Origin: Bilabrum cf. latius
Taxonomy: Eukaryota
Length of the DNA stretch: 64,000 nucleotides
Reading direction: 5' to 3'
NCBI GenBank assembly: GCA_965178125.1
Contig: OZ237741.1
Location: 868,001-932,000 of the forward strand
Part shown: positions 1 to 64,000 of the stretch, one piece after another
Layout of the letters: the number at the start of each line of letters is the position of its first letter
Numbering within the stretch: the stretch's first letter is position 1
Notes under the pieces: generated by a model
Database searches by the model: none
Told to the model about the DNA's origin: nothing
Seen by the model: only the letters and a program-made list of their open reading frames with translations
Made by a program: the position numbers and the translations under genes

Positions 1-2
1 TG

Positions 3-3000
3 AACGCATGGATCAGGCACCGGCTGCGCAAGATGGCCAAGCTCGAGTCGCTCGCTGACGCAACCACCGCACAGGCATACGCCGCGGCAGCGGCGCAGGA
101 GCAAGAGGACAACGACAGTAGGGTCAGACAGTCTAGCTCGGCAGCCGCAGCGACTGCTGCTACGTATAGTGACATGGGTGGCACGACAATGCAGGGCTCC
201 TCGTCGGCGACGAGAAACGCGCAATCGGGCCACTAGGGTCACATCGGGGACGGCGGTGTGTCGGCTGCTGTCGATCGGGCCTCTCGTGCTCGCATGGCGG
301 AGCAACGTCGGCTGCTTCGAGAGGCCTTCCGTGGCATGCACTTCCTCCTCACCCAGTTCCCGCAGTCGGAGATGGCCTGCATGCTGGCGTCCATCGGGTT
401 CAGGGACCACAGCCCCTGGCTCTTCCACGAGGCTGTGGCCCTTGCCCGCGCCAGGGGGCTGTCCCCCTCCCTAGACGTGCTATTCCACATCTACTAGCGC
501 GCGACCCAGCTCCGCGAGACGGGGTCTGAAGGAGCGTCCCCCATTGACCGCGTCCTATTCGACTAGATGTTCTCGCAGGCGCAGGAGGCTCGCACCAAGT
601 GCTTCCAGCTGCTTACCAGGCTGTGGGCTACCATGGCGCACACGGCACCTGACCTTGACGAGCTCTGGTCCGTTGGGCTGCAGCTCCAGCGCACACTGCG
701 CAAGGCAGACTCTCTGCACAGGGCCATGCTGGAACTCAATGGGGACAGCGCTAGTGCGCTGAGGGCATACGCTAAGCACTTGCTGGATCTGGGGCAGGAC
801 CCAGACAGGGCACAGGAGCTGCTCAACAAGGCAGATAGGTTGGAGGAGGTGCACAAGAGCGACAAGAGGAAGGTCATTAAAACAGTTACCATGTTGACGC
901 CATTTTCGTCCTCCAGCTCGGCATCCTCGGGCTTCGACAGCGTGGATGCGGGCGGCGGGGCTGGCATGGCCTCTGCAAGTGCAGCGGCGGCCAAGCGGAA
1001 GGAACTGGCAGCCCGTGGGATGCTCGGCGTGTCTGCTGTGGAGATGCTGGATGTCAAGGCGGCCCGCCTGTCCATCATGGATGAGAGCAGTGCAGTGATT
1101 GCCATTTCCGGGCAGGGGTCCTCCACCGGCGAGATCGTGGCTGCGTCACCAGCGGCGTGCAGGATGCTGGGATACACGCAATCAGCGCTGTTGGGCCACA
1201 ACATCAATAGCGTGCTACCGGAGCCCATCCGCTCCGCCCACGACTCATTTCTTAACCGGTTTGCTGCGGCCCCAAGGCAGCGCACTAGGGTGCTCAACCG
1301 GGACCGAGCGGTGTTCTACTAGCGCTAGGACGGCTCCCTCGTTCCGGCATGGAATACAATCATCGAGACACCCCCCGACGAGCAAACCTTTGAGCCCAGG
1401 TTTACTGCTGTGATGCGACCCATCGTAAGCGAGGATGACTACATCACCTTTGCGCCCGCCGACGGAGGATTCCGGATGTACGCGGCTACGCAGAGGTCAG
1501 TCGATCTGCTAGGACTGACGCATGAGCAGTTGGGAGATGGCAGGGCAAGTATGCTAACCTATTTTCCCACGGCAGCTAGCTCCTTTACGTCTGCAACCGT
1601 GGAACTCGACCGGGAGCAAGTGCGACAGCTGCGGTTGCAGTCGGCGGCCCAGGACATCAACCGCCAGTTCGGGTTGCGAAAATTGAATCGGAGGACGCGG
1701 CGAGCCTCGATGCTTCTCAGCAAGGGCAAGCCGTCCGAGCGGGATGGCAGCGTTGCATCAGGCCCGCAGACTGGCGAATCAGGAGCAGCTGCTGCACTAG
1801 ATGGAGATGACTTGATGGATATGCTGAGCCAGCTGGAGGGTTCTGTCGGCGGCACCGGTACAAGCCGCAGCCACAGCAAGGCGACTTTGTTCGTCAATGA
1901 CAAAGGCGTCGTCAACCGATCTGGGAGTGGAAGGGTCCTGCAGGAGGACAGCGATGACGGCACCGAGGGCCCTGGGCTGGGCAAACGCGGCATCCAAATG
2001 AAAACCAGGAACGACTCCCCGAACCAGCGGGGGTCTCTGACGCAACAACAGCAGCAGCAGCTATTGGATCGAGCTGGTACCTCACTATCACTCCGCACAG
2101 ACGGTACTGCAGGAGGCATGCAAGGCTCAGTCGCCTCGGGTGGCCAGCAAGGACGCCGAATCGCCGATGTGAAGCCGCTTCTTAGCCTGATGGGCAGCAA
2201 TTCAGGGCTAATTCCCGCGGTCGGGACCCCATAGGGGGACGTGCTGCTGCTGGGCTCAGTTCAGTTCGTGCCTCTTCCCGCGGGTGCGGGCGACTTCTTC
2301 GTGCTACGTTGGAGGTTCGCTGACAAGCGACAGGAAGAAGAGCTTGCACGGGTGGCAGCTATCAGCATGCCCTCGTCCTCCCTGTCGTCTGACGAGCTGG
2401 AAGAGAATGTTACGGGCTGTGGGGACTTTGACAGTGACAAAGGGTCCGATGTTGCGGTTGGATCCGATGTGTTGTAGGGGCAAAACGGGGGAGAGGCCGG
2501 TGGCTCACAACACCATGTCACGCAGGACCCAGCGGAACTAATGCGACGTGAGCACGCCCTCACGCACAGCGTCGGTGCAGATCACCGCTTCCGGACATCC
2601 TCTGACTCCCGCTCAGCCGTCGCGGAGGAGCAAAGCGGCCAGCAAGAGGTACCACAGCGAAACTCAATGGATTACCTCGGATCTAACGGAGACCACACCA
2701 AGTCAAAATGGCACGAAGAGCACACTGGGGTGCTGGATTCACAGGGCTCTGGCAGCCCCATTTTGCACGAGGGGCCCATCGCGGTCGATGATACTGCGCA
2801 TGTACACGGCACGGGGTCAGCGGCCGATGGGCCCAGAGGCAAAGACAGTACCAGCAAGCCGATGCAACCCACAGAGTCCGACTAGCTCAATCCCACTCTG
2901 TCAAGGAGCAAGCTCCGCACACCAACTAAGGAACGGCATTCGCGCAGGCCCAGCGTAGAGGGGCGCGTGTCGATGGAGCTCCGAGTTTCAAGCGCCAGCA

Positions 3001-5690
3001 GACAACACGGGAGGGTGGACAGCGGAGCTCGAATGGGTTCTTCGATGCGTAAGCACAGAACGACGCAAGGCAACCTATTGTTGTAGCCTGAGGGCTCCTC
3101 TGCACAGATCCGTGAGCCCAGGATGGCGGGTATAGTCAAGGGCATGATGAGGCCTTCTGCGGACTACAAGACCTTTCACATCCCTGTGGCTCGCTCTCAA
3201 CGGACCAAGGGCATAGGTGGGGAGTCCCTAGCAAGCAGCGGATCGAATGCCGTGCTGGCTGTGAGGCGAAATATCCGCAACCTCACCAAAGTAACGGAGC
3301 CAGAGGTAGTCCGGTCGAGGAAGACTCTTATCTTCCTGGTCGTATCCGTCCTCATCATCGGTGTCGCGATGATGATATGGCTCGAGGCACAACTGGTTAC
3401 CCTGCGCTTCCTGACCAAGTCACTGACCAAGTCGGGGGAGCGCATGCTGCAGTTCGAATTCGCCATGAGCTACGCAGAGGACATTGACAGGTACAGCGCC
3501 TCGCTGAACGCCACATCGACCGATTTCGTGCTCGACCTCCACGACACCGGCAGCAGCGCGGGTGCCAACCTGATCAGGGACGTGGCCATGATGACGGCGC
3601 ATGCAAAGGCCATGCGAATCAAGCACGAGGAACTGTATGATTCGCAGGAGGACGGTGGCAAGACGGCATTCTCGTTCGAGATGGACCGCACCATCGACGT
3701 CTTGTAGCCATCGGCTGATGTCGGAAGCGAAGCGACGCAGACGCGCACCACCAATTTGGTGGACCTAGGCATGGAAATGCACGCTGCCTTCGCCCGGTTT
3801 GCAGAGCTCCCAGTGCAGTAGATGAACACGGGTGACTCCGTGTCGCTGCGGTTCCTCCTGGCCAACTATGATGTGTTCATAGGGTCCATGAACCAGAGCC
3901 TAGCGCTGCGGCAGGAGGACTTTGCAAGTGCCATGCCGCGCATTCAGCTCGACATCATCTTGGGAGGGATGCTGTCGTTCCTCATGTGCGCAGGGGTGGC
4001 AGCCCCCGTGTTCTACACAGCCGTGCAGGACATTTCGGATCGCACCACAGCCGTCACCATGCTGCTGCTTCACGTTCCCCGACGCCTGGCCAAGGCCCTC
4101 AAGGACCGGGCGCAGCAAAGTCTTGACCGCATGATCGTGGAGCAGGAAGAGGGAAAGGGCGGAGGGTTGGACGATGAGGTTGGCGAGCAGCAGATGCTGG
4201 TGGATGAGGCGGACGGCGATGAGGCGTACCAAGGGGTCCTGCGGGCAGCGGAGAGGCAGGTCGCCCGGCGCATGGCGCAGCATGCCAGAAACCTCGTATC
4301 CACAGGGTCGCAATCCGAGCTTCTTCCTGGAAAACGGACCCATAGTGTGGCTGACGGAGTCGCATACGTGGACATCCAATCCGCTAGCTAGACGTAGTCT
4401 GGAGACGCGCACCACGACAGCAAAATGAAGCGCAGCAGCTTGGTATTGAGCAGTAAGGTGGTTCCCCACGACGGGAGGAGAATGATCGATTCAGATGCTC
4501 CGAGCGGCCTGCTGGCTACCAAGGCTCACTAGGCGGCATCTAGGCGGCACATGAGCGACGGGTATGCGGGCTCTGCAGCCAACCAAACCTATGCCATCCC
4601 CCCGCCCTCCCGACCCCACCAGACGTCTTCCAGCTTCGTTTCCCGCAAGGTGATGCTCCTATTGTCGCCGGTTATCCTCATCCTTGGCCTACTGAGCTTT
4701 ATATCCGTGTACTTCCGGTTCAGAATGATCACCACGGAGACGGCCATCAAACGAGTGACGGTGGTGGAGCAATCGGCGCTGCACTGCCAGGGGGCAACGC
4801 GCCAGGCCATCCGGATGGTTCTCTCCATCCCCGGTTCGACAGAGTAGATGGACGCATACGAACGGATCGTGCAGCACGACCGTCTTATTACGCAGCAGTC
4901 GGAGCTCATCCAATTCGGCGGGGTCGCTACCAGCGACTTTTCCGACATCGAGGTAGATCTGCCCCCCCTGCCAGCTCGATCCACGGCCCTTGAGCTGCTG
5001 CTGAACGATGCGTGCACACCAGTGTACCAGGAGCGGTGGTCCTCCCGGTCGTGGGACGGTGTACTGGAGCTGGATGACAGCAATGAGGTGCTACCCTTTG
5101 AGGTGAGCAACGCCTCCTCTCTCCTGGAGGTGGTCGCCGTGGATGAGGCGGCCCAGCTCGATGAATGCAGGCAGGTGGAAGGCGGGGCCTTAGGCATTGG
5201 CCTGCTCAGCGGAATCGTGGGGCTAAGGTCCATAATCAAGGATCTCCTGTCTTAGATTTCTCCCGCCGCCCCTGCTGCCATGGGCACGGACGAGAACATC
5301 GATAGGCTGATGCGCATGATCGCGCTCGAGCTACCTCATATGCGGGATGCGTACGGGCTTACCCTGTGGCTAATGGACACAGAGGTTGGTACCATCCTGC
5401 AAGAGACGCGATCCATGGCTCAGATCGTGACGTATGTATTCACTGCCGCATTCACGATGGCGGTGGCCCTGTACTACTGGCCGCAGGCCAGCTCGCTGTA
5501 GGAGTCCCTGTAGTCAGCCAGGGAACTATTGACCCTAGTGCCTGAAGAGGTGCAGATGGTGGTAACTCCGCTGAGGAGGGGGCTACAGGTGATAGCGTCC
5601 AAGCAGGAGACAGGCGAGCAGGGGCTGCCGGGTCTCTCGCCCCAGTCGAGGTGCTGCGGATGCTGCCGGTGCAGGTCAAGGTGCTGCTGA
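3..5690 (+). CDS. PAS-domain multi-pass membrane protein, TmcB/TmcC (tiny macrocysts)-like; 5' end outside window; >1,890 aa if TAG=Gln
   Basis: ORFs 33-236, 258-497, 567-1322, 1410-2234, 2241-2477, 2541-2885, 3123-3707, 3822-4391, 4551-4847, 4848-5255 and 5280-5501 share one frame, separated only by ~18 TAGs; first TGA at 5688-5690. TPR-like ALRAYAKHLLDLGQDPDRAQELLNKADRLEE, PAS fold (GEIVAASPAACRMLGYTQSALLGHNINSVLPEPIRSAHDSFL), paired C-terminal TM helices, Cys-rich tail CCGCCRCRSRCC. Confidence 0.8.
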
Positions 5691-6007: not shown

Positions 6008-9000
6008 ATGCTTCGCTACTAGTACCTTCTTGCTGGCCTACTTGCTGCTGCTGTGCTCACAACAGGTGAGCTTCTTTTATCGAAGCAGCAAGCTCTTTGT
6101 TTATCTACACTACTAGTCTATAGATCACGGTGCTGACTGGTTCATGTATTGAGAGTCCGTGTAAATTCAAGGCTGAACGAAGATCGCCCACGGCTTTGCA
6201 CTTTTTTTCTGATCAGCTAATACATCTCTCAGGGACCCAAGCGTCGTGCTCAAATGGCCGAAAGGATATTAATGGTAAGGATTAGCCAATAAGCCATGAA
6301 TATCTTTTGAATGGATCGTGTAATGTTCAATGTAGTTCGACTGCTACATTCATTTAGTTTTTGTCGCAAGCGCATGACTGCTTTAAGCCACTGTATCATA
6401 CTCATGTTTTCGATAAAAGCAAGATGAAACAATAGCGTTACCGCAACCGCAGAGTATGGCGTTGACTGTGGGGGTGCGTGCACCCGGACGTGCGACGCGA
6501 ATAGACTCAACATCCGCGACAACTACGGCTCCAGTACCGTGCAGACAGATGGACGAGCTATCACGATGGGATCAAGCCAATCCTCTTGCCCGGGCTCCTG
6601 GACTAGGTCTGGGTCTTACATCTACCAGCGTGCAAACTGCAATGCGAGGTGGTCCGGGCCAGTCCGGGATACCAACAATCGTTGTCACACATGTGGGGGT
6701 GGTGCTATGTACTTGATGCAGCGGTAAGTTCTGAAATCAAAGCTGGCCGTAGCCTCTAATTTTGCCGGAATTTATTTCTTTCACTTTTATATTTGCCTGA
6801 TGTGCTCCCCGCAGCCTCGGCAAGCTCGGCGATTTCGTTGCCGAATTCACCCTGCGCTCCAACGACAACGATGCGTTCGGCGTGGTCTGGTCTCACTCCG
6901 GTGGAACAGGCACCTCGTTCAGCAGCCTGTACGAGATCTCGTATCACTACGGCTCGAGGTGCCTCCAGCTGGTGAAGCGCGAGGGGACCACGAACTGGTA
7001 CCTGCAGAAGACCGCCAACTCCAACTCGTACCGCTACCCCATCCGCACGTTCTTCCGTGTTCGTCTGACATACATTCAGGGCTACATCAAGTTCGAGATC
7101 AGGCACTCCGGCTCGACCTACATCACCGCTCTCGAGTACACGGATCCGAACCCGCTGTCAGCTGGCAACATCGGCTTCTCGAGCTGTGGCCAGCAGAACA
7201 AGTGAGGGTGATTCTTCAGGTGCATCCACCGTTCGTATCGAGGACTTGGTCACTGTATCTCTATGACTGTATCTCTTTGCAACAGTGGCCTTGCATTGCT
7301 GCTGTGCCCATGCCTGCCCTCTCCGCTTTTGCCACCCGAGGTCCCTCGCAGCTACTACCGCATCGATTCTCTCCGGCTACTTGACAACACCTGCGACCGC
7401 ACGCTGCCCAAGTCGTCCTCCTCGCTCAAGATGCACCTGACGTCCGATTCATTCAAGCAGAGCAATATCAATACGGCTGTCAGCTGGTGGCGCGACATCA
7501 GCGGCTACAACAACCACGCCTGGTCCTCGTCCAGCTCTCAGTACCCCAACGTGGCCCGCAGCCGATGGACGGGGCAGAAAGTCATCAGCTTCATCAGCAG
7601 TGACTTAATGAGCATCAGCGGTGCCTACCCGCTAGACCCTCGTGCAGCTGGCATGTCGCTGTACATGGTGATGGATCCGAAGCAGGAGACTGGCGCTATC
7701 CTCATGGGCCCCCAGAGAAGGACAGGTAGTGTGCGCCTGCTCACGGAGCAGTTTTCTGGTATCTCGAACGGTGCTGGCTACTCTGGCTCTAATACCTTGC
7801 GTAATTCGAACTAGTTCTCGTCTCGATTTCACATCAGCCTGGGAGGCGCGCGGCTGTTCGGAGGTGACTATGCGCGGGTCTGGGGCGGCGTTTTTCAGAC
7901 CCAGGACACGAGTGCTTGGATTCGCCTGACTCTCAGAAACATCAACATCGCTGGTTATCGCAACGTTAGGGTCAGATACAGCCTTCGCAGATACGGGTGA
8001 GTTTTCAAACTGTCAGGTATAAATGTTTTTTTGGATAGAGTGTACATCCAAGCGCAGATCTGGTTTCCTCCTGCTACCATGCCAACTCCTTGCAGTGTGA
8101 ACGATAATGGAGACTGCGTCGAAGCGTGGGCTAGCTACAACGGAGGCAGCTCCTACACGCGCCACCACAGGCTCTGTAGAGACGGGTCGTGGCGGTAGTA
8201 CAGCTTCAACGTGCCCTCTACCGCCACCTAGCTTCGAGTGCAATTCCGGATGTTCCACAGCTGGGGGCCCGAGGGTGCGCAGCTCGACAACATCTACATT
8301 GATGGAGAGCCACGATCCTCTTCTATTGGTTACTCGTCATCGGCTGTGATCACGGCTGGTATCGGGATCAGCCCACCCCTCCAGGGATCCAGAGCGGTGG
8401 CCTCTTCCACCCGCGCTGTCAACGACAAGCCCATCGTGCTTTCCATGCGCGTGAACCCACACAACAGCAACAGGAACTCTCGCCTTCGCCTGTCCATGGA
8501 CGGCGTGCAGTTCTACGACGGCAACCGGGCAGGCTTCACCGATGGATCGCCCTACATGTACCACATCTCGCGCCTCTTCGATGGCGGCCAGGAGGGTCTC
8601 CTGTACGAGATGCAGGTGCACGACCGAGGGCTGAGCGATGCAGACCACAGAGAGGTGGAGCAGTCCCTGCTGACCAAGTACAGGATCTCAAGCAGCACAA
8701 CCACGTGTCCCACCATCTCGGGCGACGGAAGTGCCTGGGGCTACGGCAGCGCTACCCGAGTGACTAGCAGTCGCTGTATTGGTGGCCGCACCTCCCAGCA
8801 GTGCCAGTTCAACTGCAACTCCAACTTCATCCCTATTCGCGGCCAGTCCTCGCGCACCTGCACCAACTTCGGTCTGTGGGACGGCGCGCCCCTGTCCTGT
8901 GCGCGGAGCTGTCCCAAGCTCACTGCAGCACGGTCAGCTGGGTGCGAGCGGTCCTACATCGACGAGAGCTTCCGGTCCGGCACTGCCACGCGCGGTGGAG

Positions 9001-12000
9001 GCTCCGACAGACTGGTAGCTCTGCCGTGGCGTGGGTCCACAACCGGGTGGAGTGCTTCCATCCAGCAATGGCGTGTGAACGGCGGTTACCTGAGTCTGAA
9101 CCGCGGCGATTCGTGCTCGACTCTGCAGCGGGCCGACAACTACCTCGTGACGATGGATCAGGGCTGGGAATCCAAGAATTTCCCGCTCGACGTGTCTGCT
9201 GATGTGTATGGGAGCACGGGATCTGCTGGATTTGTGATCCGCACGCAGTTTGACAAGAACGATCCGTACAACAAGGCTATGGCTGACCACTACCTGGTGG
9301 TGATCGACTGGTCCGACAGGCGCATACGGGTGTAGAGGAGGGCAGCAGGAGAGCTGCGTGGTGCTATCTGTAACACGCAGCTGGCCAGCTCTGTGATCAA
9401 GACCAACACGTGGCAGGACCTGCGCGTGCGAGCCGAGGGCAATCGCTTCCAGGTGTACCTGGATGGGACCAGGCGGTGCGACGTGCGGGATGGATCTGCT
9501 GATGCCCTGCCGTCAGGTGGTGCCGGTGTGTACATGGATACTCCTGGAGCGCCCGCCCGCTTCCGTGACCTCAAGATCAAGCAGGTAGACGACACATGCA
9601 TGAATGGATGCGACGAGATGGCAGCTGGCGAGACCTGCACGTTCGCTTGCCAATCACCATTTGTGGCCCGTGGCGATGTGTCTCGCACGTGCCAGACGAA
9701 CGGTGCGTGGAGTGGGACGGCGGTGGGCTGTGGTTATCCACTTCCCACTGTGTCCAATCAGGCCCGTGAGATCCTCGAGGAGAGTCCGGAGAATACCGCA
9801 GTTGGTACCCCATTGACAGCCACGGCCGCTGCTGGTCTCGAGGTGCAGTTCGAGATCGTGTCGGGCAATACTGGCGACGCATTCCGCGTGTCGAGCTGCA
9901 CTGGGCAGCTTCGTGTGGCCACGCCCAGTGCAATCGACTACGAGAGTGGGACACGCACCTTCACCCTGGGCATGCGTGCGATGACCGAGGGCGACACTGA
10001 CGCGGCCGCCACATTCACGGTGACTGTGACTGTACTCGACAGGAACGAGCCCCCGGAGTTTGCGGCACAGTCGCGATCCATCAACGAGAATGCCGCTGCT
10101 GGCACCAATGTTGGAGCTGCCCTAACTGCCACAGACCCTGAGGGCGATGACATCGTGTGGTCCATCGAGCTGGGCAACGCCAACAACGCCTTCCAGATCT
10201 CGTCCAGCGGGCAGCTGACCGCCGGAACCACGACGCCGAGCCCGCTTGATTTCGAACAGACTCCCACGTGGCGCATCGTGGTGCGAGCCGCGAACGTGGA
10301 GGAACAGGATGGCTCCGACGTGGTGGTGGCGTACACGGAGGCCACCATCACCGTGACCCTGAACGACGTGAACGAGCCTCCAGTTGCCAACAACATGACC
10401 GTGAAGATCCTGGAGACTTTCGGACAGCAGGGCCAGACCGGCGCAGATCGCAGCGTGGGCACTCTTGCCATCGTGGACCAGGACGTGGGGCAGACTGTGT
10501 CTCTGGCGGCTGGATCGGGCTACCAGTCCAGCCAGTTCAGCGTGTTTGGCAATGGATCTGTGCGCTTGAAGTCAGGCGTCACGCTGGATTACGAGACCCG
10601 ACCCGTGGTGCTGGTGCCCTTTATCGCATCGGACGACCACAGCCCCTCTGCGTCAGCTCAAGGCTTTGTGGTGATTGAGCTGGAGGACGTGAATGAGAGT
10701 CCTGTGGTGTCTTGGCCGGGCGAGTCAGGCGTGCCTGCTTTGAGTGTGCTGGAGGACGCCGGTGTCGGCGACGAGGTGGGCCGGATCGTGGCCACGGATC
10801 CCGATCGCGGGCAGCTGGCTCGCTTCCGCATCGACTCGCAGAGCCCAGCAGGCAAGTTGCTCATCAACACGGAGACTGGCATGATCACGCTGGCCGCCCC
10901 TCCCGCAGGCTCCATCGGCCCATTGCTGGACACGGAGACGCAGCCCACGCTTGGTGCCAACATCACAGTGTACGACACGGAGTTTGAGGTGCATCGTGAG
11001 GTGATCATCACTGTGGCGAATGTGGACGAGCCTCCAGTATTCACGACTGCCAGGCAGGGTGCTCTGGGTGTCAACGAGAACTCTGAGTCTGCTTCTGCCG
11101 CTGCTCGCACCTCAGTCGGCACCGTTCGTGCCAACGACCCCGAGTCTGGGACTGGCTCAGGTGTGACGTACAGCATCGTGTCATAGGATGCCACGAGGGC
11201 CGGTCACACGGCTCCCTTCGTGCTGGACTCCACCACCGGGCTGCTGCAGGTGAACGACGCGGAACAGGGAGGCGAGAAACCCGACCTGGATCACGAGTTC
11301 CAGGGCGGGTACATGGCCATCAATATCAGTGCCTCGGATGGCAGCGCCCCGGCCGGTGCCACCGTGATGGAGTTCCTGGTGACCATCCGCAATGTGAACG
11401 AGGCCCCGTCTCTGGATGCCTCGAGCGGCAACTTCTTCGCAGCAGCCTCTCGAGCCGGCACGATTGGGCGCCCCCTCGCGACATTCGTCGCGGACGAGGA
11501 CCTGCAGAGCAGCACGTTCACGGAGCGGTTCAACTTCTCGATCACGGCAGGAGACAGTGACGGTATCTTCAGCGTGGAGCAGGGTACTGGCCAGCTGTTT
11601 GTGACTGCCACTAACGCGGCCAAGGACGGCTTCGCCTTCTCGTCCACCGGCGTAGCAGGAGCCAACCAGTTCAGTCTGAGTGTCCAGGTGACAGACAAGG
11701 AGGGCCTGACTGGTACCGGCACTGTGCTTGTGCAACTGACTGATACCAACCTAGCGCCGACGTTCAGTGCCACATCGTTCACCATTGCTGTGGATGAGAA
11801 CGCAGCGGATGCTACGCTTGTGGGCCGCATCGATGCTTCGGATGCCAATGATGGACAGACAGTCTCGTTTTCCTTGGCACCGACCGGTGCCTCTGCCAAC
11901 GCTCCGTTCCCGTTCGTGGTGCAGAGCGCCACTGGCGGTGATGTCAGCAGCGGCGCAGACGGCACAGCCATCATCCAGGTGGCATCTGGTTCCGGTGGAG

Positions 12001-20826: not shown

Positions 20827-21217
20827 TGAAGCAGCTTGTACAGGCCACCTGATGAACGATGGGCATCACCAAATGCTGGCCATCGTTCGATGAGGGTGTC
20901 CCATGCCTTGGTGTAGTCTCAGCGTGATTTCGCTTGACCAGTACTTGTTTTCACAATTAGCAATAGTGTCTATATCCGGGCTATGACAGCACTGCACACT
21001 AAAGACTCTGACTTGGCAATGCACCTACTCAACTGGCTAGACTAGCCTAATGAGACTGAATGCACTAGAGCTATGGTGGGTACTCGGGATGCGACAAAAT
21101 TTCCAGCGCAATCAAACCGAAATGATCAGTAAAACACATGGGACGTCCGCTCGGCGGCGCTTGCGGCAGGCGGCCCGGCCCAGATAGGCCTTCGTTGTCA
21201 CCCACTTGCATCAAACC

Positions 21218-24035: not shown

Positions 24036-24182
24036 CGCGATACCCAAAGAAGTATGTAGGGATGCCCAGTACGACGAGAAGAATGCCCAGCGCCAGACCC
24101 GTTTCGATCTGGATATTTACAACAACACGCTACTTTTAACACACACGAACCTACTTCACCCACATTTTTTAGGGTTCTAAGC
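24036..24182. promoter_or_regulatory. Putative bidirectional promoter (CTL / GH3)
   Basis: 147-nt relatively AT-rich gap between divergent inferred start codons 24035(-) and 24183(+). Confidence 0.5.
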
Positions 24183-26848: not shown

Positions 26849-26976
26849 TTCTGTAAAACGGATCTCGCGGACACAAATCTGAAGACCACTGCTTGGCTCG
26901 GGGCTCGGTGGTCCTCCTTGCGTGTTGACTACATTTCTTTATCGAAGTAGATTTATGAAAACCTGCAAACCACGAA

Positions 26977-36709: not shown

Positions 36710-36822
36710 CGCCGCGGTGGAACGTTGTCGCAATCCGGCGCACTCATTTAGCTGATATTTGATTGAAACAAGAAACTCCAGATGAAATTTGAAATACATT
36801 CTGTTTGCGCAAACCTGATGTT

Positions 36823-40294: not shown

Positions 40295-40407
40295 TCCAGT
40301 CGACTGCACAAAGCAGCATTGCATGCCGCAGCCACACCAGGGCACAGCCCCAGCAGACCACTTTCCTCCGTTCTACCGAGTCACCAAAGCTCAGCGCAGC
40401 ACAAAGC

Positions 40408-55445: not shown

Positions 55446-58400
55446 ATGGCCTCGAATGCGGCCACATCGTAGAAGCCGGCACCGCCACCAAAAGTAGCGA
55501 AGCCACGCCGCCCGTCGCAGCCAAGGCGCACAAGAAGGACAAGTTGGGCAGCTGGTGGTAGTGCAGGCCGCCTTGGTCACCTGAAGGAGTTTGCACGTGA
55601 CCGAGCAGACTAGCATGGCACAGAATATGAGACCGTGGGGTTCTCAAACTCTATAGCCTCGCCGACAGCGGATGTTCAATTTAACTAGAGTGCAACCTCC
55701 AGTCAGAGCAGAGTCAACCGATCAGGTTCCAAAGGAATTGACGCGTAGAAAGTTGCGGAATATGGCATCATCGACGGGTCGGAGAGAAGGCACGACGCTT
55801 CGGCGGCAAATCAATTCTTTGCTAGCGATTCGAGCGTAGGAATATCTCCTATTGGTGGTACTAGGCCGCGGGATGCTCGTAGTCGAGCTGAACATGCCAT
55901 GAAAGTGTTTGGCGACGCAGTTGCACGTTTGCATCGTGAGAAAGGTAGGCGTCATTCGTTTGGTGCTGGGACAGCGACAGCAAACTAGCTGTCAAGACAA
56001 CATGATTTAAACGAACATTTGCAAGTGACAGCTCTTGGATAGAGTAGGCACGCAGAGAGCGAGCAAGTCCGCAGGTTTGGACCGAGCCATGCGTGGGGCG
56101 GTCACGACGTACCCGAACGCAGGGCAGCTGGCGAAGGGGCACAGTCTCAGGCTTCGAGTAAGTCCAGCAGTAGCAAAATTTTGCCAACCATGAGCTTCAA
56201 TGGCGGACGGGGATCCTCCAACGGAGGCTCGCGCGAGATAGCCTCGGAATCGAAGCACGATGTAAACCGGTCCAGCCCGAGCCCCATCCCAGCTGCTGTC
56301 CCAATTAGACTCGAATAGTCTGCACTAGGAATGCGATCCGATCAAGAGATGGGCCACTTACCTGTCAATGCCCAGAGAAGGCGAATCTCTGAGCTCTCTT
56401 AGGATTCGGCCGTGGAAGAGCTCCGCGCAGCTGAGGCCGCCATCCTGTCTTCACGATCCATTCACGGCGCGGCAGGGGCCTCGAAGGTTCCGTTCGGTTA
56501 GAACTCGCAGAACGGAGCAAGCGTTGCCGAGTCCAAAGGAATAGGCTTGTTGGGCACAGGTCGCGATGGTTTCGGTACGGGGACTGGCGCTGGAGGTCCA
56601 CCAATTGGTACGAGTGCAGGTTCAGGTGCTGGCGGCGGCACAGGCGGAGAGAAAGCAGGCACTGGGGTAGGGATGGGAAAGAACAGGCCGCACATCTTTG
56701 AAGTCGTGCAAATGGCGGTCGAGGCAGATCGCAGGAAGTGCACGCCGGCAGCTGCGGTGTGTCCCTGCTACCTGTGGGCCACCCCGCAGGTGCGAAAGAC
56801 GCTGATCGCAATCCAGGAGCACTGGCTCTATGTGACGCTGAACGTGTCCCTGACGGTGTTCTGCATCGTTGCACAGGATCTTCTCCTCGCTTTCTTTCCC
56901 AAGACGGTAGATCCTGCCTTTGAGATCGTGTACATCACTGCGTGCACGCTCTTTCTCATGGACACCATCATCGCGTCATCCCTCGACCGGCGCATCGTAG
57001 GTACGTTCTACTGGTTTCTTGACGTGGCTGCGGCTCTGTCTCTTCTTCTAGACGTGGAAGCGGTTTTCAACGCGCTTTTAGACCTCTTTGGGCAGTCTGA
57101 TGATGCGAGCGATTCGCTGAGTATCGTCAAGACCACGGTCCGAGCAGGGACCCGTGTCGGCAGGATCCTCAGGTTGCTTCGCGTTCTTCGGCTCATCCGG
57201 GTGTACTCCTGCGTGCGAAGCTGTCGCAAACTTGACCTACCAGGGCAGTGCTCAAGAGGTTTCTGGAGCTGCTGGCACGACGCCGGCGAATGCTGCATTG
57301 CGGCGTTTGTTGCGTAGGTGGTCATACATGGTGACGGCTCCGGCAGTGGAGACGGCGATGAAGATGGCGATGGTGGTGCTGATCCTAGCGCACCGGAGAC
57401 CAGAAGAGCTAGTTTTCAGGCAGTTGCCAGGCGAAGACGGAAGCGCAGGTCCTCAGCGGTGCTGGTCAAGGAGGGCCTGATTCCCGCGCGGAAGCCGACC
57501 TGCTGGGCTCTGTGCGCAAGGGGGTGTCGTGGGTGCTGCTCCAGTTGCATCTAGTGCTTTTTTTGCGTGGAAGTTAAGAAGGATGGACAGATCCGGAGAC
57601 GGCGACGGTCGAGTTTATTCGCGGGAAAGGGCGGGGAGAAGAGGCGCCGGCGGCGATCGAGCCTGCACGCAGACATTTCCCGCGGTTTGTCGCTCAAATC
57701 GGACTCGCAGCGGAGTGGAGGCATGAGCACTGTGCAGGCGGAGGAGGAACAAATAGGAGGAGATGGCGGGGCGGGGACGACGAGACGGCCCTTCTTCCAG
57801 TCTGGCATCCAGGGTGACTTCGTGCTGGAGCACTCGTTCCGGGAGGATGGCGCGCACGAAGGCGGCCAGGTGCCCTATGGCAGCTATGAGCAGAAATTCG
57901 ACGGGGCTGAGGTGCAGCAGCAGGCGGGCAACGGGCGGATGTTTTCCGTGGCCCCATCTACGTCTGAAGCTGAGCAACCCAGGCTCGGCGTTTTCGGCCA
58001 GGTACCGTCGGCTTCTGCGACTTCGATGGAGGGCGAGGAGGATGATGTTGCTGCTCTCCCACTGTCGGCTGTCGAGGGGAAAGCTGTCTCCAGCGTACCA
58101 TTTTCTGCCGGGCAGTTGAGCGGGGGTGAAGCCCATAGCGCCGAGGGCAACTCGAACACGGATGGAAGCAACAGCGTGATCGACATGGACAAGCTGCGCG
58201 GTGGCAGATCACGGACACGCTCCGACACGGTAGATGGATCAGTCACTGACGCAGGCTCAAGGGAAGCTAGCTTAATTGAGGAGCCGAGTAGTGCTGGTGC
58301 AGCGATTGTATCGCCGCGGAGCCCCGGCAGCAGGAGCAGCTCGAAGTTGTCTGGCAGCTTGGTAGAAGGCGTGATCAGGCAGGCTGGTGCTGGTAGACAG

Positions 58401-61400
58401 CACAGCACCGGACAAGTATTTGGGCCTGATTCCGGGAGTGATGTAGAGCGTCGCCAGTCGCAGGGCACATCTATTCGCTCTAGAAGACGGTATGCGGGCC
58501 GGGCGCCCGCAGTTATGCGCAATCCAAGCATGCGGAGCGTGGCGTTCAGCAGTGCTGGGCAGTCGGTGGCACTGGATACAGGAGAGGGAGAGCTAGGCTC
58601 TCCGTTTCTCTCCCCATAGTAGTTGTCGTCTGGGGTGCCTGGATCGACAGGCAGGCATGACTCTGACTCGAAGGGACCACGGCCGAGAATTCGCACCCTT
58701 GGCGATGACGGCTCTGACGTAGCGTCGCAGTCGGGAGGGCCCTCAGTCCCTTCTTCTCCTTCGAAATCAAAGCACATTCGTAGCTCCGGGGGCTCAACGC
58801 AGCTGGCTCTCGCAGGGCGGGGTACATGCCCGCGAAAGCGACATAGCGTGGCCGGCCATGGCGCTGAGCAGGCAGCGGCGGCGCGCGATGCCAGCCTTCT
58901 TGGCAGACCAGCTGGCCAAGCCGGGCTGGAAGGGGCTGCCAGGAACGCCCGTGCGAGTGACAGCGACATGGTTGTCGTGTCCAAAGCCGCGCTAGAGGAG
59001 GCCTTTGCAAGACAACAACAACAGATAAGGGCGCAAGTAGCGATGGAATTTGCCTCAAAGCGTGGTTTCGCTGGATTTCCTGCCGGGATGGCAAGCACCC
59101 GCGTGCGTGGAACAAGGCGACCATCCACGCATAGCCAGCTCAAGAACCCAATGGCAAAATCCACGCGGTTTTCTGGCAGAGAACACCCGATACAGCAGCC
59201 GGCCATGAGGCGAGACAAGTGGAAACTCGCCAAGTCGGTGCTAGTCTCCAACGCTGCAAAGTCCACCAAGGCGACCGGCATCGCTGCGGCCTTCAAAGCT
59301 GCCATCAGCGCTGCCAAATCGGGCGGTTACCGTCCCGCATCAAAGCGCCACTCTGACAACGCGGGCACGATTCCGGCAATGCTAGCCGTTGCAAGGGGGG
59401 CCAGATCAAAGAGGACACCGTCTGGCTCGCGCGTGATGCCAGCTGGCATGGGAATTGCCAGCATCGGCCAAAGGAGAAACAGCAGCCCGTCAGCCCGAGA
59501 CGCCCAGCTTGCGGTGCAAGCCATGAAGTCGAGGCGCGCGCGACAATCTGGTCAATCAAGAGGACCCGAGCAGGTCGGATTCAGCAGCAAGCTCACGATC
59601 ACCAACCCTGCAGGCAGCCCTGCTCCCAAGCGAGCCGGCAGACGTCGAAGCGCGGACAGCGTTCCGAGCCCAGTCGGGTAGTCGCAGCGCCAGGTCGATC
59701 TAACCCAGAGCCGTTCGGGATCACGACGGTCTCCCAGCGACGACGTTGTTCACACCATGTTCAACACCGTGGCAGATGCTGGCAAGAGCAACAGGCTCTC
59801 CAGTGGCGACATTCGAAGCAGTGCTGGTAGGAGCAGCCGAGGCAACGGCCGCGCCAATCCTCCCATCTGGATCCGAACTGGCACTTCCAGTACTGACAAA
59901 CAACGAAGTATGGGTGCACAACCTTCTTCAGATGGAGAACATGCCAGAACTAGCTCTGTCGCGATGAGCTCAATTGCCGAGGAACATGTACCGACTGCTT
60001 AGGCAAAGCAAGAGCAAATCAAAGCAAGCCACGCATTGTCGAAGCCAGATACTAGCAGCAAGGGCATCCGTCGCCTGCGCGATAGGCCGCGGGCCTCGAA
60101 TGATGGCAGCGCCAAGCCGTCTGCATCGAGCTAGGGGGCTGTCGTGGCGGCTGGTTTGCCGAGCGAGGCCAGCATTGGTCGGCGCATGAACCGACCCGTT
60201 ACAGACGCAGACATGGCTGCGAGGCTTGCCATTGGGGATCGTGCTCCAAGTAATGTGTCATCGCTGCTTATGCAAGACTTGGGTGCATCCCAGGCGCTCG
60301 CTGGCTCTCTCCACGATGTTGATCAGCAGCTCAGCACGCCCGATATTAAGCCAAGGAAAGCCTCGGTACAGTCGATGCCTACGATGCGGGAACATGGATC
60401 TGGTAATGACAGCGCGAGCAAGCACGGGTCATCCAGCGTGTCGAGCAGGTCTTCCATGCAGCAAAAGCCCCTGCAAGGCAAGGTTTAGCTGACGCGATCT
60501 CTTCGTCAGTCTGACCACGCGGTGCGCTCCGTGCTCATGAAGCAGACCATTCCCATGAGTCGAATTGCGACAATGAGCCAGGGCTAGGTGGCTTCTTTGC
60601 CTGGGGTCATGTCTCCCAAGTTCGCCCGCTCTGCCACGTCTGGATTCGCAACAAAGGTGCTCAACGTTTCGAGGCGAAGCGCGGCGGAGGAACTGCAGCA
60701 AGCACTCATGGATGGATGCAGCTCCGATGAGAACGGCTCCAAGTCGACGTCGACCACTGCGAAGTCTTCTCAGAAAAAGTTTACTTACGGCAGGACCTCG
60801 CGAGGCAACGACGGAGGAACATCCACGAGCAGGGGCGGCGGAGGGGTCCCGAGGTCGGGCTCAGCGCTCGCCAGCATCCCGCGTGCATCCTCAGAAGATG
60901 CCTCCGGAGTGGAGGAACGCGACAACGGCAGAGTGTCCAGCATCTTGAGCCCCGTGAAGGAGCTTCACAGTCCGGTTGAGGGAGAGAGTGGGAGGCAAAT
61001 CGGATCTACTACAAATGGTGGTGACTTGTCCGGGCCCTCGTCTCCATCCAGGTTTCCTACGCGGCAGTCCACTGACGATACCCAGATGACGGAGCCTTCA
61101 CGGCGTCCATTTCAACTCTAGGGTGCAGGACTGGGTGGAAGCAGCAGGCTGGGCGCATTGTTGGAGAACGGCAACTCAGAAAGCGAGGAATCAACTGGGA
61201 AAACGGACACGTAGACGTCTCATGATGCGTCTGGTCATTCGAGCCGCCGTCGGTCAAGCCGCGCTGAACCGAGTGCTACTGCAGCAGGCGAAGCCCGGGG
61301 TGCATGGGCGGGTGGAAGCGAAGACTATGAAGATGAAGAGGAGAGAAAGGTCACCGGTGATTCTGGTGCTGACGAGGATCACACAGAGTACCACTCTGGC

Positions 61401-63629
61401 ATCCCCGTAATGGATCTATCTGCTAATGCACACCAGAGCCCTGGCGGCTCCCCCGGATACGTGGACTACGCCTCATTTGCCCGAGTTGGCGTCAGCGAGG
61501 CAACGCATGACTCAGAGGACCCCTACGCTAGCTTCAGAACGGGCTACACGAGCAATCGATCCTTGGAGCAGAGCGGTCGTGAGCTGGGTGACGCCAACAG
61601 CAGCGACTCCGACGACTCGGAAGAGGAAGAAGAGGCTATGAAGGCCCGCGAATAGATGGGTAGTAGCCGGGTGGGGCAGCAGATCAACCAGCGGATCAGG
61701 CGAAAGATCATTGTGTTCGTCCTTGCTATCATCTTGCTCATCCCATTGCTAACATACGAGACTGGAAACGACACGCGCCGAATGCTGACTTCGCTGCGGC
61801 TGATCGAATCGGCGGGAGTAGCACCGGAATCGGTACCGCCAGCGGATCGCGCCGAGTCGTTCTACGGCGCCGAGAGCGCGCAGGCACTCCTGGTGCAAGA
61901 GTTTTTGGACGAGCACCCAAACACGATCCAGCTTCGAATCGCAGGGGCTACGTTTGGGGAGGCAGACCCGGATGATCCGTCCGTGCTCGTGCTGGAGAGC
62001 GACAAGATCAGCGTGCTGAGGTCCTCCGAGGTAGAGTTCCTCGTCAGCTCCAGGGGGTCCCAAATCCGGCTGGACATATCGAATCAGACAAGGACTGAGA
62101 GTATCTACGCGTTTGCACTTACGCAGGTCATCATCATCTTGCTTGGTGTCCAGGCTGGCCTCCTCCAGCAAGATGTAGACACTCTGCTGGTGCACCCGCT
62201 CGAGAGAATCAGCATGTACTTGCGGCCCATCATGCAGGATGCAATCTCCAACATCAGTGCGAAGAGGAGCGGGCAGGACCAGAGCAACATGCTGACAGGA
62301 CAGTCTACGTCGAAGGCGAAGGGCTGGCGAAAGATGCTGGGCCAGGACGATGGCGAGGAGATGAGCACCAAGCTCCTGCTGGCAGCGATCGAGTGCATGC
62401 GACGAGACCTGAGCGCCACGGCAAGGCGCAATTTCGCGAGAAAAGAGCTTATGTCGCACCTGAAGCAGGCCGACAAGACGAAGCGGGGCATCAGAAAGAG
62501 CATGGTCATGCTCAAAAAGGCGGGTCAGATGGATGAGGAGGGTGGCCTCAGGTTTGTGCCAGTAGCCGATGAAGACGATTTTCTCAGGGCGTATCGTCCG
62601 GGGCAGACGAACCAGGGGCGGCTGCTCAGGCCAGCGACCTCCATCATTCCGTACAGCAAGCTAACACGTGTACAGGAAGCCGACGAAGCTGCGGCCGATG
62701 AGGAGGAGGACGATGGGGAGGAGGGTGGCCATTCCTCCGAGAGGCACCTGAACGACGGAATGAAGACTGGTGACGGGCACAACAGCGACAGCGGTTCGCA
62801 CGGGACTGGCAGCGCTTCGGAAGAGCTTGACCTGGGTATTGGCAACCCTGTTGATGCGTGGTCTCCAGCCGCGACTGGAGGCATTAAGAGCATATCTCGA
62901 TCTGGTTCTGCAGCTGGGCAGGCGCCAGCAAGCGCTGCCGCGCCGCGAAATCCGTTTGCTATCGATCTGGATGCGCCTGGGGGCCAGGCACCACTCCTCG
63001 AAGAAGCAGATGTGGAGCAGGGCGGTGGTTCCACCCGAATGATGCAGAGCTAGGAGAGAAAGTCCACGTCGGCAGATGAGGACGGCAGCGGCAGCGGAGG
63101 CAAGGACGAGTTCGGGCTGCTGCCGCTTGAGGCCATGAAGCCACCGACAACTCTCACCAGAGGTGCATCGATGAGAAAGAAGAAAAAGACCGGCAACAGC
63201 AAGTCAAACGAACCGGAACTAACCCTTGGAATCATGTCTCCCTCCCAGCCAGACCCGGCGGGCACTTCGTCCTCGCGTCATCGACGAGGGCAGTCAGGCT
63301 TCACCGCTGGTGGATCGACAGGGTCGCAAGAGGACGGCGACAACGATGACCCCTTCGCGAAAACGATGGGAGCAGGCGGCGGCCTAGATTACACCAAGTT
63401 TGCGGAAGATCCTTTGCTCGCGCCCATTGCCGACGGGCCGACCCCATCCGGGTCGTAGTCCCGCGAGGGCTCCATGTTCGGGGGCTCGGGACGGAAGCTA
63501 GGCACGCTGTCCAGGTCCAGGAGTCGCGGACGGCGGCAGAGAAACAGCCGCAGGAGGATAACGAGGGGCTCCACAAGGGAGCTCGACGATGAGGAGAGGA
63601 TCAAGGTGGATGGGGATCCTGATGCTTGA
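55446..63629 (+). CDS. Voltage-sensor-domain membrane protein resembling the TM part of ion-channel/adenylyl-cyclase fusions, with very long disordered regions, ~2,727 aa
   Basis: One frame from ATG 55446 to TGA 63627-63629 through ~23 TAGs and no TAA/TGA. S1-S3 helices at ~56820-57090 (FYWFLDVAAALSLLLDV); S4 VRAGTRVGRILRLLRVLRLIRVY; later SRVGQQINQRIRRKIIVFVLAIILLIPLL and IIILLGVQAGLLQQDVDTLLVHPLERI. Start codon uncertain (56190 is an alternative). Confidence 0.75.
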
Positions 63630-63790
63630 TGAGAGGGTAGGGAGGCGGTGTTTACATCCAGGATACACCTCGCTGCGTCCGTCCTGTCCTGCCGCGCGGG
63701 ACACGCCGGTCGCGCTTCACGTCTCATATGGTAGTTTGATTTATATGCCAAGCTGTTTGTTCATCATTTTCGGATCTGCACAGGTGCTTG

Positions 63791-64000
63791 TCACGGCGAG
63801 CCATCCTCGCGTAGGGTCGCCATCCCACTGCGCAGCCTCGAGTTGGTCTGCTCCATCAGCTCGATGACGTCATCATCTCTCCCCGGAACCAGGGAAAAGT
63901 TCGCAGGAATTGTGGCCGACCGCTGGTAAAATTCCCAGCACCACACCAGCGCTGTCGTTATCCCGGTGCGCTTACTTGCATCACCAGGCAAAGCCGACGC
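63791..64000 (-). CDS. Possible 3' end of a gene extending beyond the window
   Basis: Frame open from the window edge to TGA at 63793-63791, convergent on the previous gene; no recognisable domain. Confidence 0.4.
   Translation of the reverse strand, partial: ASALPGDASKRTGITTALVWCWEFYQRSATIPANFSLVPGRDDDVIELMEQTNSRLRSGMATLREDGSP

What the first reader, a model, noticed from the sequence alone, without database searches (positions are those of the whole stretch)
1..64000. Non-standard nuclear genetic code: UAG is read as glutamine throughout the window
Seen: all ten long genes are interrupted only by TAG (~90 by hand count, including adjacent TAG-TAG at 58617-58622), never by TAA, TGA or a frameshift, over roughly 55 kb of coding sequence. 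Reading through TAG yields complete, domain-intact proteins with signal peptides, in-phase introns and proper C-termini, and no complete gene ends at TAG. Established: UAR-to-Gln recoding is known in ciliates, some ulvophyte algae and hexamitid diplomonads, and needs a tRNA-Gln(CUA) and an altered eRF1. Inference: gene content (nonagonal-type cadherins, TmcB-like, channel-cyclase-like) with high GC suggests a non-ciliate, possibly stramenopile lineage, where such a code would be unusual or possibly undescribed. Standard-code annotation would shred this proteome.
Basis: partly seen in the sequence, partly recalled or inferred. Interest (0 to 1): 0.96.

Follow-up and report, generated by a model that had tools for sequence, protein, structure and literature searches.

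The report
UAG read as glutamine, nuclear genes
This stretch of GC-rich nuclear DNA from an unidentified protist uses the stop codon UAG as an ordinary glutamine codon while keeping UAA and UGA as stops, a rare variant genetic code that would shred its proteins if it were annotated with the standard code.

Summary
In ten gene models (19,087 codons) there are 89 in-frame TAG and no internal TAA or TGA. The two other frames of the same DNA carry about 400 TGA each.

TAG means glutamine:
- Between the two near-identical giant paralogues, 11 of 12 discordant TAG sites are CAG.
- Against a syntenic metagenome relative, 9 of 10 well-aligned discordant sites are CAG or CAA.
- Three database ORFs of close relatives have Q at the window's TAG.
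- Deeply conserved columns are Q: 101 of 120, 126 of 135 and 129 of 134.

Transcript contigs from two studies are spliced (GT..AG), and one has a poly(A) end. They carry the TAGs unchanged.

TAA and TGA are stops: 3 and 7 of 10 gene ends, and none ends at TAG. So this is NCBI table 15, not the UAR=Gln code.

Table 15 is already known from Iotanema and a few ciliates. This is therefore a new member of a known kind, in a roughly 60% GC, TGA-terminating, non-ciliate-looking lineage.

The lineage is unresolved. The tRNA-Gln(CUA), eRF1 and protein-level proof could not be tested.

The parts
3..5690 (+). Gene A, 5'-partial: 1895 codons, 18 in-frame TAG, ends TGA. It carries TmcB-type TPR repeats and a PAS domain.
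7212..20414 (+). Gene B, a giant cadherin/Sushi/IPT-TIG/multi-pass membrane protein. Exons lie at least at 7212-7996 and 8096-20411, with an inferred intron at 7997-8095 (GTGAGT..CAG, 99 nt). 9 in-frame TAG, ends TGA. The start is not fixed.
20990..24036 (-). Gene C, a choline-transporter-like protein. CDS is 24035-23872, 23737-23640, 23519-23315 and 23186-21221, with TGA at 21220-21218. Three introns are confirmed by RNA joints. 3 in-frame TAG.
24183..26955 (+). Gene D, a family 3 glycoside hydrolase. Exons are 24183-24260 and 24359-26845, with intron 24261-24358 (GT..AG), TGA at 26846-26848 and a poly(A) site at 26955. 5 in-frame TAG, at 24246, 24425, 24455, 24557 and 26204.
26936..31146 (-). 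Gene E, 1361 codons, no Pfam family. CDS is 31062-26980, with TGA after it. 9 in-frame TAG. One RNA contig spans the gene with 0 differences. The orthologue lies next to GH3 in L001.
31263..36781 (+). Gene F, a P5A-type ATPase. Exons are 31263-31535 and 31625-36706, with intron 31536-31624 (GT..AG) and TAA at 36707-36709. 6 in-frame TAG, at 31320, 31491, 32657, 34268, 35285 and 35456.
36823..38652 (-). Gene G, 609 codons from the first ATG, no Pfam family. 5 in-frame TAG, ends TAA.
38793..39770 (+). Gene H, 325 codons from the first ATG, no Pfam family. 4 in-frame TAG, ends TAA.
40408..53560 (-). Gene I, the inverted paralogue of gene B. Exons lie at least at 53560-52791 and 52696-40411, with an inferred intron at 52790-52697. 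7 in-frame TAG, ends TGA.
55446..63629 (+). Gene J, 2727 codons from the first ATG, no Pfam family, with an S4-like arginine-rich membrane segment. 23 in-frame TAG, including the TAG-TAG pair at 58617-58622. Ends TGA.

Best explanation
The organism reads UAG as glutamine in its cytoplasmic translation and terminates at UGA (mostly) and UAA. This is NCBI translation table 15.

Shown here:
- TAG sits inside intact, selected, transcribed, spliced nuclear genes.
- TAG is interchangeable with CAG and CAA in evolution.
- TAG occupies deeply conserved Gln columns.
- TAG makes up about 11% of Gln codons.
- At least one related organism shares the code.

Inferred from established knowledge of such codes (PMC5304391, section 9):
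- A tRNA-Gln with anticodon CUA does the decoding. It is one mutation away from tRNA-Gln(CUG). It pairs with UAG but not UAA, which is why UAA can stay a stop.
- The eRF1 has lost or weakened UAG recognition.
- In a GC-rich genome that terminates mainly at UGA, UAG was probably rare as a terminator before it was captured.
For: (1) Frame statistics: 89 TAG, 0 TAA and 0 TGA in 19,087 in-frame codons. The +1/+2 frames hold 429/401 TGA.

(2) Giant paralogues (97.4% nt identity): 11 of 12 discordant TAG sites are CAG in the other copy, 1 is CGG, and 2 TAG are shared. With TAG=Q, dN/dS is 0.12.

(3) Syntenic relative L001 (GH3 76% aa identity, 55.5% GC) has its own in-frame TAGs. Of 12 TAG sites in well-aligned context (at least 10 of 21 identical), 2 are shared. 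Of the 10 discordant ones, 9 pair with Gln codons (7 CAG, 2 CAA) and 1 with CAT. GH3 dN/dS is 0.04.

(4) Standard-code database ORFs of close relatives have Q at window TAG sites: P0285 (98% identity), and P0305 (97.6%) and P0307 (77.8%).

(5) Deep columns:
- P5A site 349 (LTGESVPQ): Q in 101 of 120 homologues.
- P5A site 1282: Q in 69 of 116.
- GH3 site 96: Q in 126 of 135.
- GH3 site 140: Q in 129 of 134.
- GH3 site 689: Q in all the nearest homologues I printed, but V 46 against Q 26 overall.
- GH3 site 106: variable.
- Summed log-odds over the 6 occupied columns: Q +12.5, next best L -6.6.

(6) RNA: contigs of runs X5 and X6 (two studies) join across 5 introns with GT..AG ends, and one ends in poly(A) at 26955. 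They cover genes C, D, E and F. No listed difference from the DNA appears in table 3, and the pieces spanning genes E and F show 0 other letters. 23 of the 89 TAG lie in these four genes; coverage of two of them, at the start of gene C, rests on my arithmetic from the contig's length.

(7) UAA and UGA as stops: gene ends are 7 TGA and 3 TAA. L001's GH3 ends ...VVALP-TAA exactly where the window's ends ...KVALP-TGA. If TAA were Gln at the CAA:CAG ratio (140:586), about 21 in-frame TAA would be expected, and 0 are seen.
Against: - There is no protein-level evidence.
- No tRNA-Gln(CUA) or eRF1 could be examined. No genome is held and the window has no tRNA.
- Only ten gene ends were sampled, so rare use of UAG as a terminator is not excluded.
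- One paralogue site pairs TAG with CGG, and one orthologue site pairs it with CAT.
- Among poorly aligned sites of gene E, TAG faces many different codons or gaps.
- GH3 column 689 is mostly V across distant homologues, and column 106 is variable. Two of four P5A sites lie in lineage-specific insertions.
- The tool labels runs X5 and X6 only as 'RNA?' (X5 as 'probably DNA'). I call them RNA because of the joints and the poly(A) end.
- Starts of six genes are unverified.
Confidence: 0.93

Rival explanations
1. Both UAA and UAG encode glutamine (table 6, as in most ciliates, ulvophytes, hexamitids, oxymonads and Amoeboaphelidium). On this reading TAA is merely rare because the genome is GC-rich.
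For: TAA is rare in every frame, at 45-56 per frame. 7 of 10 genes end at TGA.
Against: There are 0 in-frame TAA in 19,087 codons, where about 21 would be expected from the CAA:CAG ratio. Three genes end at TAA. The P5A TAA falls about where homologues end. L001's GH3 has TAA at the exact orthologous terminus where the window has TGA.
Confidence: 0.03
2. [quoted passage not shown] Condylostoma, karyorelicts and Blastocrithidia show this kind of ambiguity for their reassigned stop codons.
For: Only ten gene ends were seen. The last in-frame TAG lies at least 37 codons before the stop in every gene.
Against: 0 of 10 genes end at TAG. TGA or TAA closes every frame. TAG is spread through gene bodies, with decile counts of 24, 7, 9, 5, 5, 9, 6, 11, 4 and 9.
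Confidence: 0.03
3. UAG encodes another amino acid (Leu, Glu, Tyr, Ser, Lys or pyrrolysine).
For: GH3 column 689 is V or I in many distant homologues, and column 106 is E or K. One TAG pairs with CGG and one with CAT.
Against: Log-odds are Q +12.5 against L -6.6 and E -9.4. Gln codons sit opposite TAG at 20 of 22 discordant sites in close comparisons. Two of those are CAA, which is not one mutation from TAG.
Confidence: 0.01
4. The TAGs are not translated: the genes are pseudogenes, the TAGs are assembly or sequencing errors, or RNA editing or splicing removes them.
For: None beyond the fact that TAG is a stop in the standard code.
Against: dN/dS is 0.12 and 0.04. No TAA, TGA or frameshift accompanies the 89 TAG. 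Contigs of four runs agree with the window, and spliced transcript contigs keep the TAGs. An independent metagenome contig shows the same pattern, including 2 shared TAG sites.
Confidence: 0.01

Closest known systems
Iotanema spirale (Fornicata) nuclear code: UAG to Gln, with UAA and UGA as stops (PMC5304391, abstract and section 9 read; PMC9161772, passages read)
   Same: The codon table is the same: UAG is glutamine while UAA stays a terminator. The same predicted mechanism applies: tRNA-Gln(CUA) plus an eRF1 weakened for UAG.
   Different: Iotanema uses UAA as its primary terminator; here TGA closes 7 of 10 genes in roughly 60% GC DNA. Iotanema is an anaerobic endobiotic metamonad. This window's P5A ATPase groups with Ectocarpus-containing sequences. 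Its T32G change in the eRF1 GTS motif could not be looked for here.
Ciliates with UAG-only to Gln: Hartmannula sinica, Trochilia petrani and Protocruzia tuzeti (PMC11687900, abstract, introduction and passages read)
   Same: Translation table 15. UAG is used widely as a sense codon and shows no dual meaning.
   Different: Per the paper, those species use UAA as the preferred stop. That ciliate genomes are AT-rich is my recollection, not read. Here the DNA is about 60% GC, with genes over 4,000 codons, spliceosomal introns of 89-134 nt and mostly TGA stops. Ciliate affiliation was not tested directly.
UAR to Gln code (table 6) of many ciliates, Ulvophyceae, hexamitid diplomonads, Streblomastix and Amoeboaphelidium (list as given in the PMC11687900 discussion)
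   Same: UAG is read as glutamine.
   Different: UAA is also glutamine in those lineages. Here UAA is a stop.
Other UAG-only reassignments: rhizarian exLh and TARA phyllopharyngeans (Leu), Scotinosphaera (Ser) (PMC5304391; PMC11687900 discussion)
   Same: The meanings of UAG and UAA are decoupled.
   Different: The amino acid differs. Here it is Gln.
Code 15 in crAss-like and Lak phages (search listings only)
   Same: TAG is glutamine.
   Different: Those are phage genomes that switch code with their own suppressor tRNA. These are spliced, polyadenylated nuclear genes.

Membership tests
NCBI translation table 15 (UAG = Gln; UAA, UGA = stop) | In-frame UAG inside otherwise intact, conserved coding sequences | tested here: met
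   89 TAG in 19,087 codons of ten genes, with no internal TAA or TGA. dN/dS is 0.12 and 0.04.
NCBI translation table 15 (UAG = Gln; UAA, UGA = stop) | UAG corresponds to glutamine | tested here: met
   Gln codons sit opposite TAG at 20 of 22 discordant sites in paralogue and orthologue comparisons. 3 of 3 relatives' ORFs have Q. Conserved columns are Q in 101 of 120, 126 of 135 and 129 of 134. Log-odds are Q +12.5 against L -6.6.
NCBI translation table 15 (UAG = Gln; UAA, UGA = stop) | UAA still terminates | tested here: met
   There are 0 in-frame TAA. 3 of 10 genes end at TAA. L001's GH3 ends in TAA at the orthologous terminus.
NCBI translation table 15 (UAG = Gln; UAA, UGA = stop) | UGA still terminates | tested here: met
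   There are 0 in-frame TGA, against about 400 in each other frame. 7 of 10 genes end at TGA.
NCBI translation table 15 (UAG = Gln; UAA, UGA = stop) | UAG is not used as a terminator | tested here: inconclusive
   0 of 10 gene ends are TAG. The sample is too small to exclude rare or context-dependent use.
NCBI translation table 15 (UAG = Gln; UAA, UGA = stop) | UAG is present in mature mRNA (not edited or spliced out) | tested here: met
   Intron-spliced contigs from two studies, one with a poly(A) end, cover genes C-F with no listed difference from the DNA. Pieces over genes E and F show 0 other letters.
NCBI translation table 15 (UAG = Gln; UAA, UGA = stop) | A tRNA-Gln with anticodon CUA | not testable with these tools
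   No genome is held. There are 0 tRNAs in the window and in L001 and 0 Rfam matches.
NCBI translation table 15 (UAG = Gln; UAA, UGA = stop) | An eRF1 N-domain altered for UAG recognition (GTS, NIKS, YxCxxxF) | not testable with these tools
   eRF1 is not in the window and no genome is held.
NCBI translation table 15 (UAG = Gln; UAA, UGA = stop) | Glutamine found at UAG positions in the protein | not testable with these tools
   No proteomic data are available here.
Table 6 (UAA and UAG = Gln) | UAA used as a sense codon | tested here: not met
   There are 0 in-frame TAA where about 21 would be expected, and TAA closes 3 genes and the L001 GH3.
UAG = Leu codes (rhizarian exLh, TARA phyllopharyngeans) | UAG aligns with conserved leucine | tested here: not met
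   The log-odds for L are -6.6, against +12.5 for Q.

The most novel reading that the evidence does not exclude
This may be an independent, not yet described origin of the UAG-only-to-Gln code. It would sit in a deep, poorly sampled, GC-rich, UGA-terminating SAR-like protist lineage that forms an environmental clade. That clade holds at least three sequence types, at about 97%, 77% and 73-76% protein identity, and recoding was shown directly by DNA in one of them. If so, it would be the first case where UAG capture happened under GC pressure rather than AT pressure. With genome and transcriptome data apparently in hand, the organism could let the tRNA-Gln(CUA)/eRF1 discrimination between UAG and UAA be studied outside ciliates and uncultivable anaerobes.
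Probability: 0.45. Interest if true: 0.75.

Novelty: new member of a known kind. Interest (0 to 1): 0.62.

Why it matters
Nuclear code changes are rare, and codes that give UAG and UAA different meanings are rarer still. The papers I read name only a handful of cases (PMC11687900 discussion; PMC5304391).

A further, probably independent case in GC-rich DNA that terminates mainly at UGA bears on how stop codons are captured. UAG could fall out of use as a terminator when GC pressure favours UGA. The case also bears on how eRF1 and a CUA-anticodon tRNA separate UAG from UAA.

There is a practical consequence. Standard-code gene calling already shreds this organism's genes in public protein collections. 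The GH3 and P5A genes appear there as fragments that break at TAG. Its proteome and that of its environmental relatives are therefore mis-annotated.

Tried and rejected
- **Whole genome:** none is held for this window, so Codetta-type inference, a tRNA scan and eRF1 inspection were impossible.
- **Non-coding RNAs:** ARAGORN found no tRNA in the window or L001. Rfam gave no match.
- **The protein-atlas search:** one call failed on length. I dropped the step.
- **Sequencing runs:** no listed holder is on record as RNA. I inferred the RNA nature of X5 and X6 only from joints and a poly(A) end. Run X8 and the small-share runs were not used for habitat or identity. A single joint in X5 (34268 to 35354, AG..GC ends, side 21 letters, one contig) was not treated as an intron.
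- **Taxonomic placement:** an IQ-TREE run did not finish. Two FastTree P5A trees (49 and 53 rows that I chose from the hits) leave the lineage unresolved on a long branch of 0.92. The nearest named homologues are at or below about 35% identity: Ectocarpus and diatoms for P5A, Pleodorina for the choline transporter. Cluster look-ups gave no organism names for the close relatives.
- **Literature:** seven searches found no description of UAG-to-Gln in a GC-rich non-ciliate lineage. The library lacks many subscription journals, and supplements were not opened. PMC6733595 turned out to concern plastid codes only.
- **Scripts:** A run with a wrong intron guess for gene I was redone with derived coordinates.
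Full report
**Observation**

The window is about 60% GC. Under the standard stops it breaks into many mid-sized frames. If only TAA and TGA are taken as stops, frames of 4137, 4121, 2802, 1895, 1698, 1366 and 902 codons appear, each interrupted only by TAG.

I built ten gene models, A to J. Exon boundaries came from RNA-contig joints for genes C, D and F. For the giant genes B and I they came from splice motifs plus the paralogue alignment.

The models hold 19,087 codons with 89 in-frame TAG, 0 internal TAA and 0 internal TGA. In a slightly earlier version of the models, the +1 and +2 frames of the same DNA held 429 and 401 TGA, 38 and 48 TAA, and 111 and 106 TAG. The absence of TGA and TAA from the coding frame is therefore not a matter of composition.

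- The TAG-TAG pair at 58617-58622 exists.
- Gene ends are TGA in 7 genes, TAA in 3 and TAG in none.

**These are nuclear, expressed genes, and the TAGs are in the mRNA**

I laid contigs of four public runs on 20900-39900.

- Run X1 reproduces the whole stretch without a difference. It may be the source of the window.
- Runs X5 and X6 come from two other studies. Their contigs skip five segments with GT..AG (or CT..AC) ends: 23187-23314, 23520-23639 and 23738-23871 in gene C, 24261-24358 in gene D, and 31536-31624 in gene F.
- One X5 contig ends at 26955 in a run of A, 107 nt after the GH3 stop.

The tool labels these two runs only 'RNA?'. I call their contigs transcript-derived because of the joints and the poly(A) end.

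No difference from the DNA reached the tool's listing. The pieces spanning gene E (26936-31146) and gene F (31265-31535 plus 31625-36781) show 0 other letters. The GH3 and gene C pieces show 0 or 1.

So 23 of the 89 TAG (3 in C, 5 in D, 9 in E, 6 in F) lie in these four genes, which the spliced transcript contigs cover. For the two TAG at the start of gene C, coverage rests on my arithmetic from the contig's length. Editing, splicing-out and assembly error are excluded for these genes.

**The genes are under selection**

With TAG counted as Gln, the two giant paralogues have dN/dS 0.12 (dS 0.06). GH3 against its orthologue in L001 has dN/dS 0.04, with dS saturated. These are not pseudogenes.

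**Which amino acid**

*(a) Paralogues.* Genes B and I are an inverted duplication: 8112-20345 against 52680-40447 at 97.4% identity, with flanks at 86% and 96%.
- In the main exon, all 10 TAG present in only one copy face CAG in the other, and 2 TAG are shared.
- In the more divergent upstream exon, one TAG faces CAG and one faces CGG.
- The total is 11 CAG and 1 CGG among 12 discordant sites.

*(b) Orthologues.* A search of metagenome contigs with the GH3 protein returned L001. It is 6,284 bp and 55.5% GC, and it carries GH3 (76% aa identity) followed on the other strand by the orthologue of gene E, the same order as in the window.
- L001 has its own in-frame TAGs and no in-frame TAA or TGA in these two genes.
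- Of all TAG columns in the two alignments, 12 lie in well-aligned context (at least 10 of 21 identical residues).
- Of those 12, 2 are shared TAG, 9 pair TAG with a Gln codon (7 CAG, 2 CAA) and 1 pairs it with CAT.
- The remaining 18 columns lie in poorly aligned or gapped parts of gene E. There TAG faces various codons or gaps, and I did not count them.
- CAA is not a single mutation from TAG, so the equivalence is at the amino-acid level.

*(c) Database ORFs of close relatives, called under the standard code, read Q at window TAG sites.*
- P0285: 98% identity, choline transporter.
- P0305: 97.6% identity, P5A site 886.
- P0307: 77.8% identity, P5A site 349.

*(d) Deep conservation.*
- Among 120 P5A homologues, the column of TAG 349 (the LTGESVPQ motif) is Q in 101, L in 10 and H in 7.
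- Site 1282 is Q in 69 of 116 occupied rows.
- Sites 886 and 1225 lie in insertions.
- Among 150 GH3 homologues, site 96 is Q in 126 of 135 occupied rows and site 140 is Q in 129 of 134.
- Site 689 is Q in all the nearest homologues I printed, but V 46 against Q 26 overall.
- Site 106 is variable.
- A simple summed log-odds over the six occupied columns gives Q +12.5, L -6.6, A -7.0 and E -9.4.

**UAA and UGA**

TAA closes genes F, G and H. The P5A alignment to solved structures ends about 20 residues before this TAA, and about 12 residues before the end of the human construct.

L001's GH3 ends ...VVALP followed by TAA exactly where the window's ends ...KVALP followed by TGA.

If TAA were a Gln codon used in the CAA:CAG proportion (140:586), about 21 in-frame TAA would be expected. 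None is seen.

**Usage**

TAG is 10.9% of Gln codons, or 4.7 per 1000 codons. Its share is lowest in the high-GC3 giant genes (4-5%) and highest in low-GC3 genes G, H and J (17-22%). This is how a synonymous codon under mutation bias would behave.

TAG occurs along whole gene bodies, with an excess in the first tenth (24 of 89). That excess may partly reflect unverified start codons in genes A, B, G, H, I and J.

**Mechanism (inferred)**

Because UAA stays a stop, the decoding tRNA should carry anticodon CUA. That is one change from tRNA-Gln(CUG). eRF1 should have lost UAG recognition. This is the argument made for Iotanema, where the GTS motif of eRF1 is changed (PMC5304391 section 9; PMC9161772 passages).

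Neither molecule could be examined. No genome is held, and the window and L001 carry no tRNA.

**Who is it**

The genes have spliceosomal introns of 89-134 nt and poly(A) tails.

The closest full-length homologues are only 36-48% identical and unnamed. The nearest named ones are Ectocarpus and diatoms for P5A and a green alga at 29% for the choline transporter.

Two FastTree P5A trees were built from 49 and 53 rows that I chose from the hits. They put the window, together with its 97% and 73% relatives, on a long branch. That branch sits inside a well-supported group whose only named members are Ectocarpus and a cluster containing a Symbiodinium-labelled partial protein.

This is compatible with a stramenopile or alveolate (SAR) position but does not establish it.

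Fragmented ORFs at about 97%, 77% and 73-76% identity exist in public collections, so there is a small clade of relatives. L001 is the only one whose DNA I saw, and it shares the code. The uninterrupted 1534-, 837- and 744-residue ORFs of the next-nearest homologues suggest that the recoding stops short of them. This is inference only.

**What is known**

UAG-only-to-Gln is described for Iotanema spirale (PMC5304391) and for the ciliates Protocruzia tuzeti, Hartmannula sinica and Trochilia petrani (PMC11687900 discussion). All of these are reported to prefer UAA as terminator.

Seven full-text searches found no report of this code in a GC-rich, non-ciliate lineage. The library misses many subscription journals, and I opened no supplements.

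I therefore file the finding as a new member of a known kind. The code is known, the lineage is probably new, and its GC-rich, TGA-terminating background is unusual.

**Verdict**

- The interpretation (UAG = Gln, nuclear) is supported at about 0.93 confidence, refined to table 15.
- The stramenopile attribution and the 'undescribed' status remain open.
- Interest is 0.62. It would matter to people who study code evolution and to anyone annotating this organism, but it is not a new kind of code.

Noticed in passing
window 6810-20831 and 40015-53969: A large inverted duplication carries the two giant cadherin/Sushi/IPT-TIG/membrane genes. The core is 12.2 kb at 97.4% identity, the upstream exon region is 86% identical and the 3' flank 96%. 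The two copies bracket a unique segment of about 19 kb that holds genes C-H. dN/dS between the copies is 0.12.
   Followed up: partly
window 26936-26955: The transcript contigs of the convergent genes D (GH3, + strand, poly(A) at 26955) and E (- strand, contig from 26936) overlap by about 20 nt at their 3' ends.
   Followed up: no
L001 1-6284: This metagenome contig from a related organism keeps the window's gene order: GH3, then the orthologue of gene E on the other strand. It shares two TAG positions in GH3 with the window (QQ-TAG-LYAWHNANS-TAG-TW). Those two TAG therefore predate the split of the two organisms.
   Followed up: yes
window 55446-63626: Gene J (2727 codons, 23 TAG) matches no Pfam family. 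It contains a membrane region with an arginine-every-third-residue segment (RILRLLRVLRLIR) like a voltage-sensor S4 helix. The rest is mostly low-complexity Ser/Gly/Arg-rich sequence.
   Followed up: no
window 3-5687: Gene A combines TmcB-type TPR repeats (E 3e-19) with a PAS domain and several predicted membrane stretches. No cyclase domain was detected at E<0.01.
   Followed up: partly
window 7997-8095 and 52697-52790: The apparent in-frame TGA (7998-8000) and TAA (52787-52789) just upstream of the giant ORFs belong to the 5' splice sites (G|GTGAGT and AA|GTAAGA) of short introns. They are not coding stops.
   Followed up: yes
run X8, laid on window 20900-39900: In run X8 the window's sequence appears only as low-depth contigs (about 2-3), beside much deeper contigs (about 170-190) that merely touch the stretch over about 20 letters. 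This suggests the organism is a minor component of that sample.
   Followed up: no
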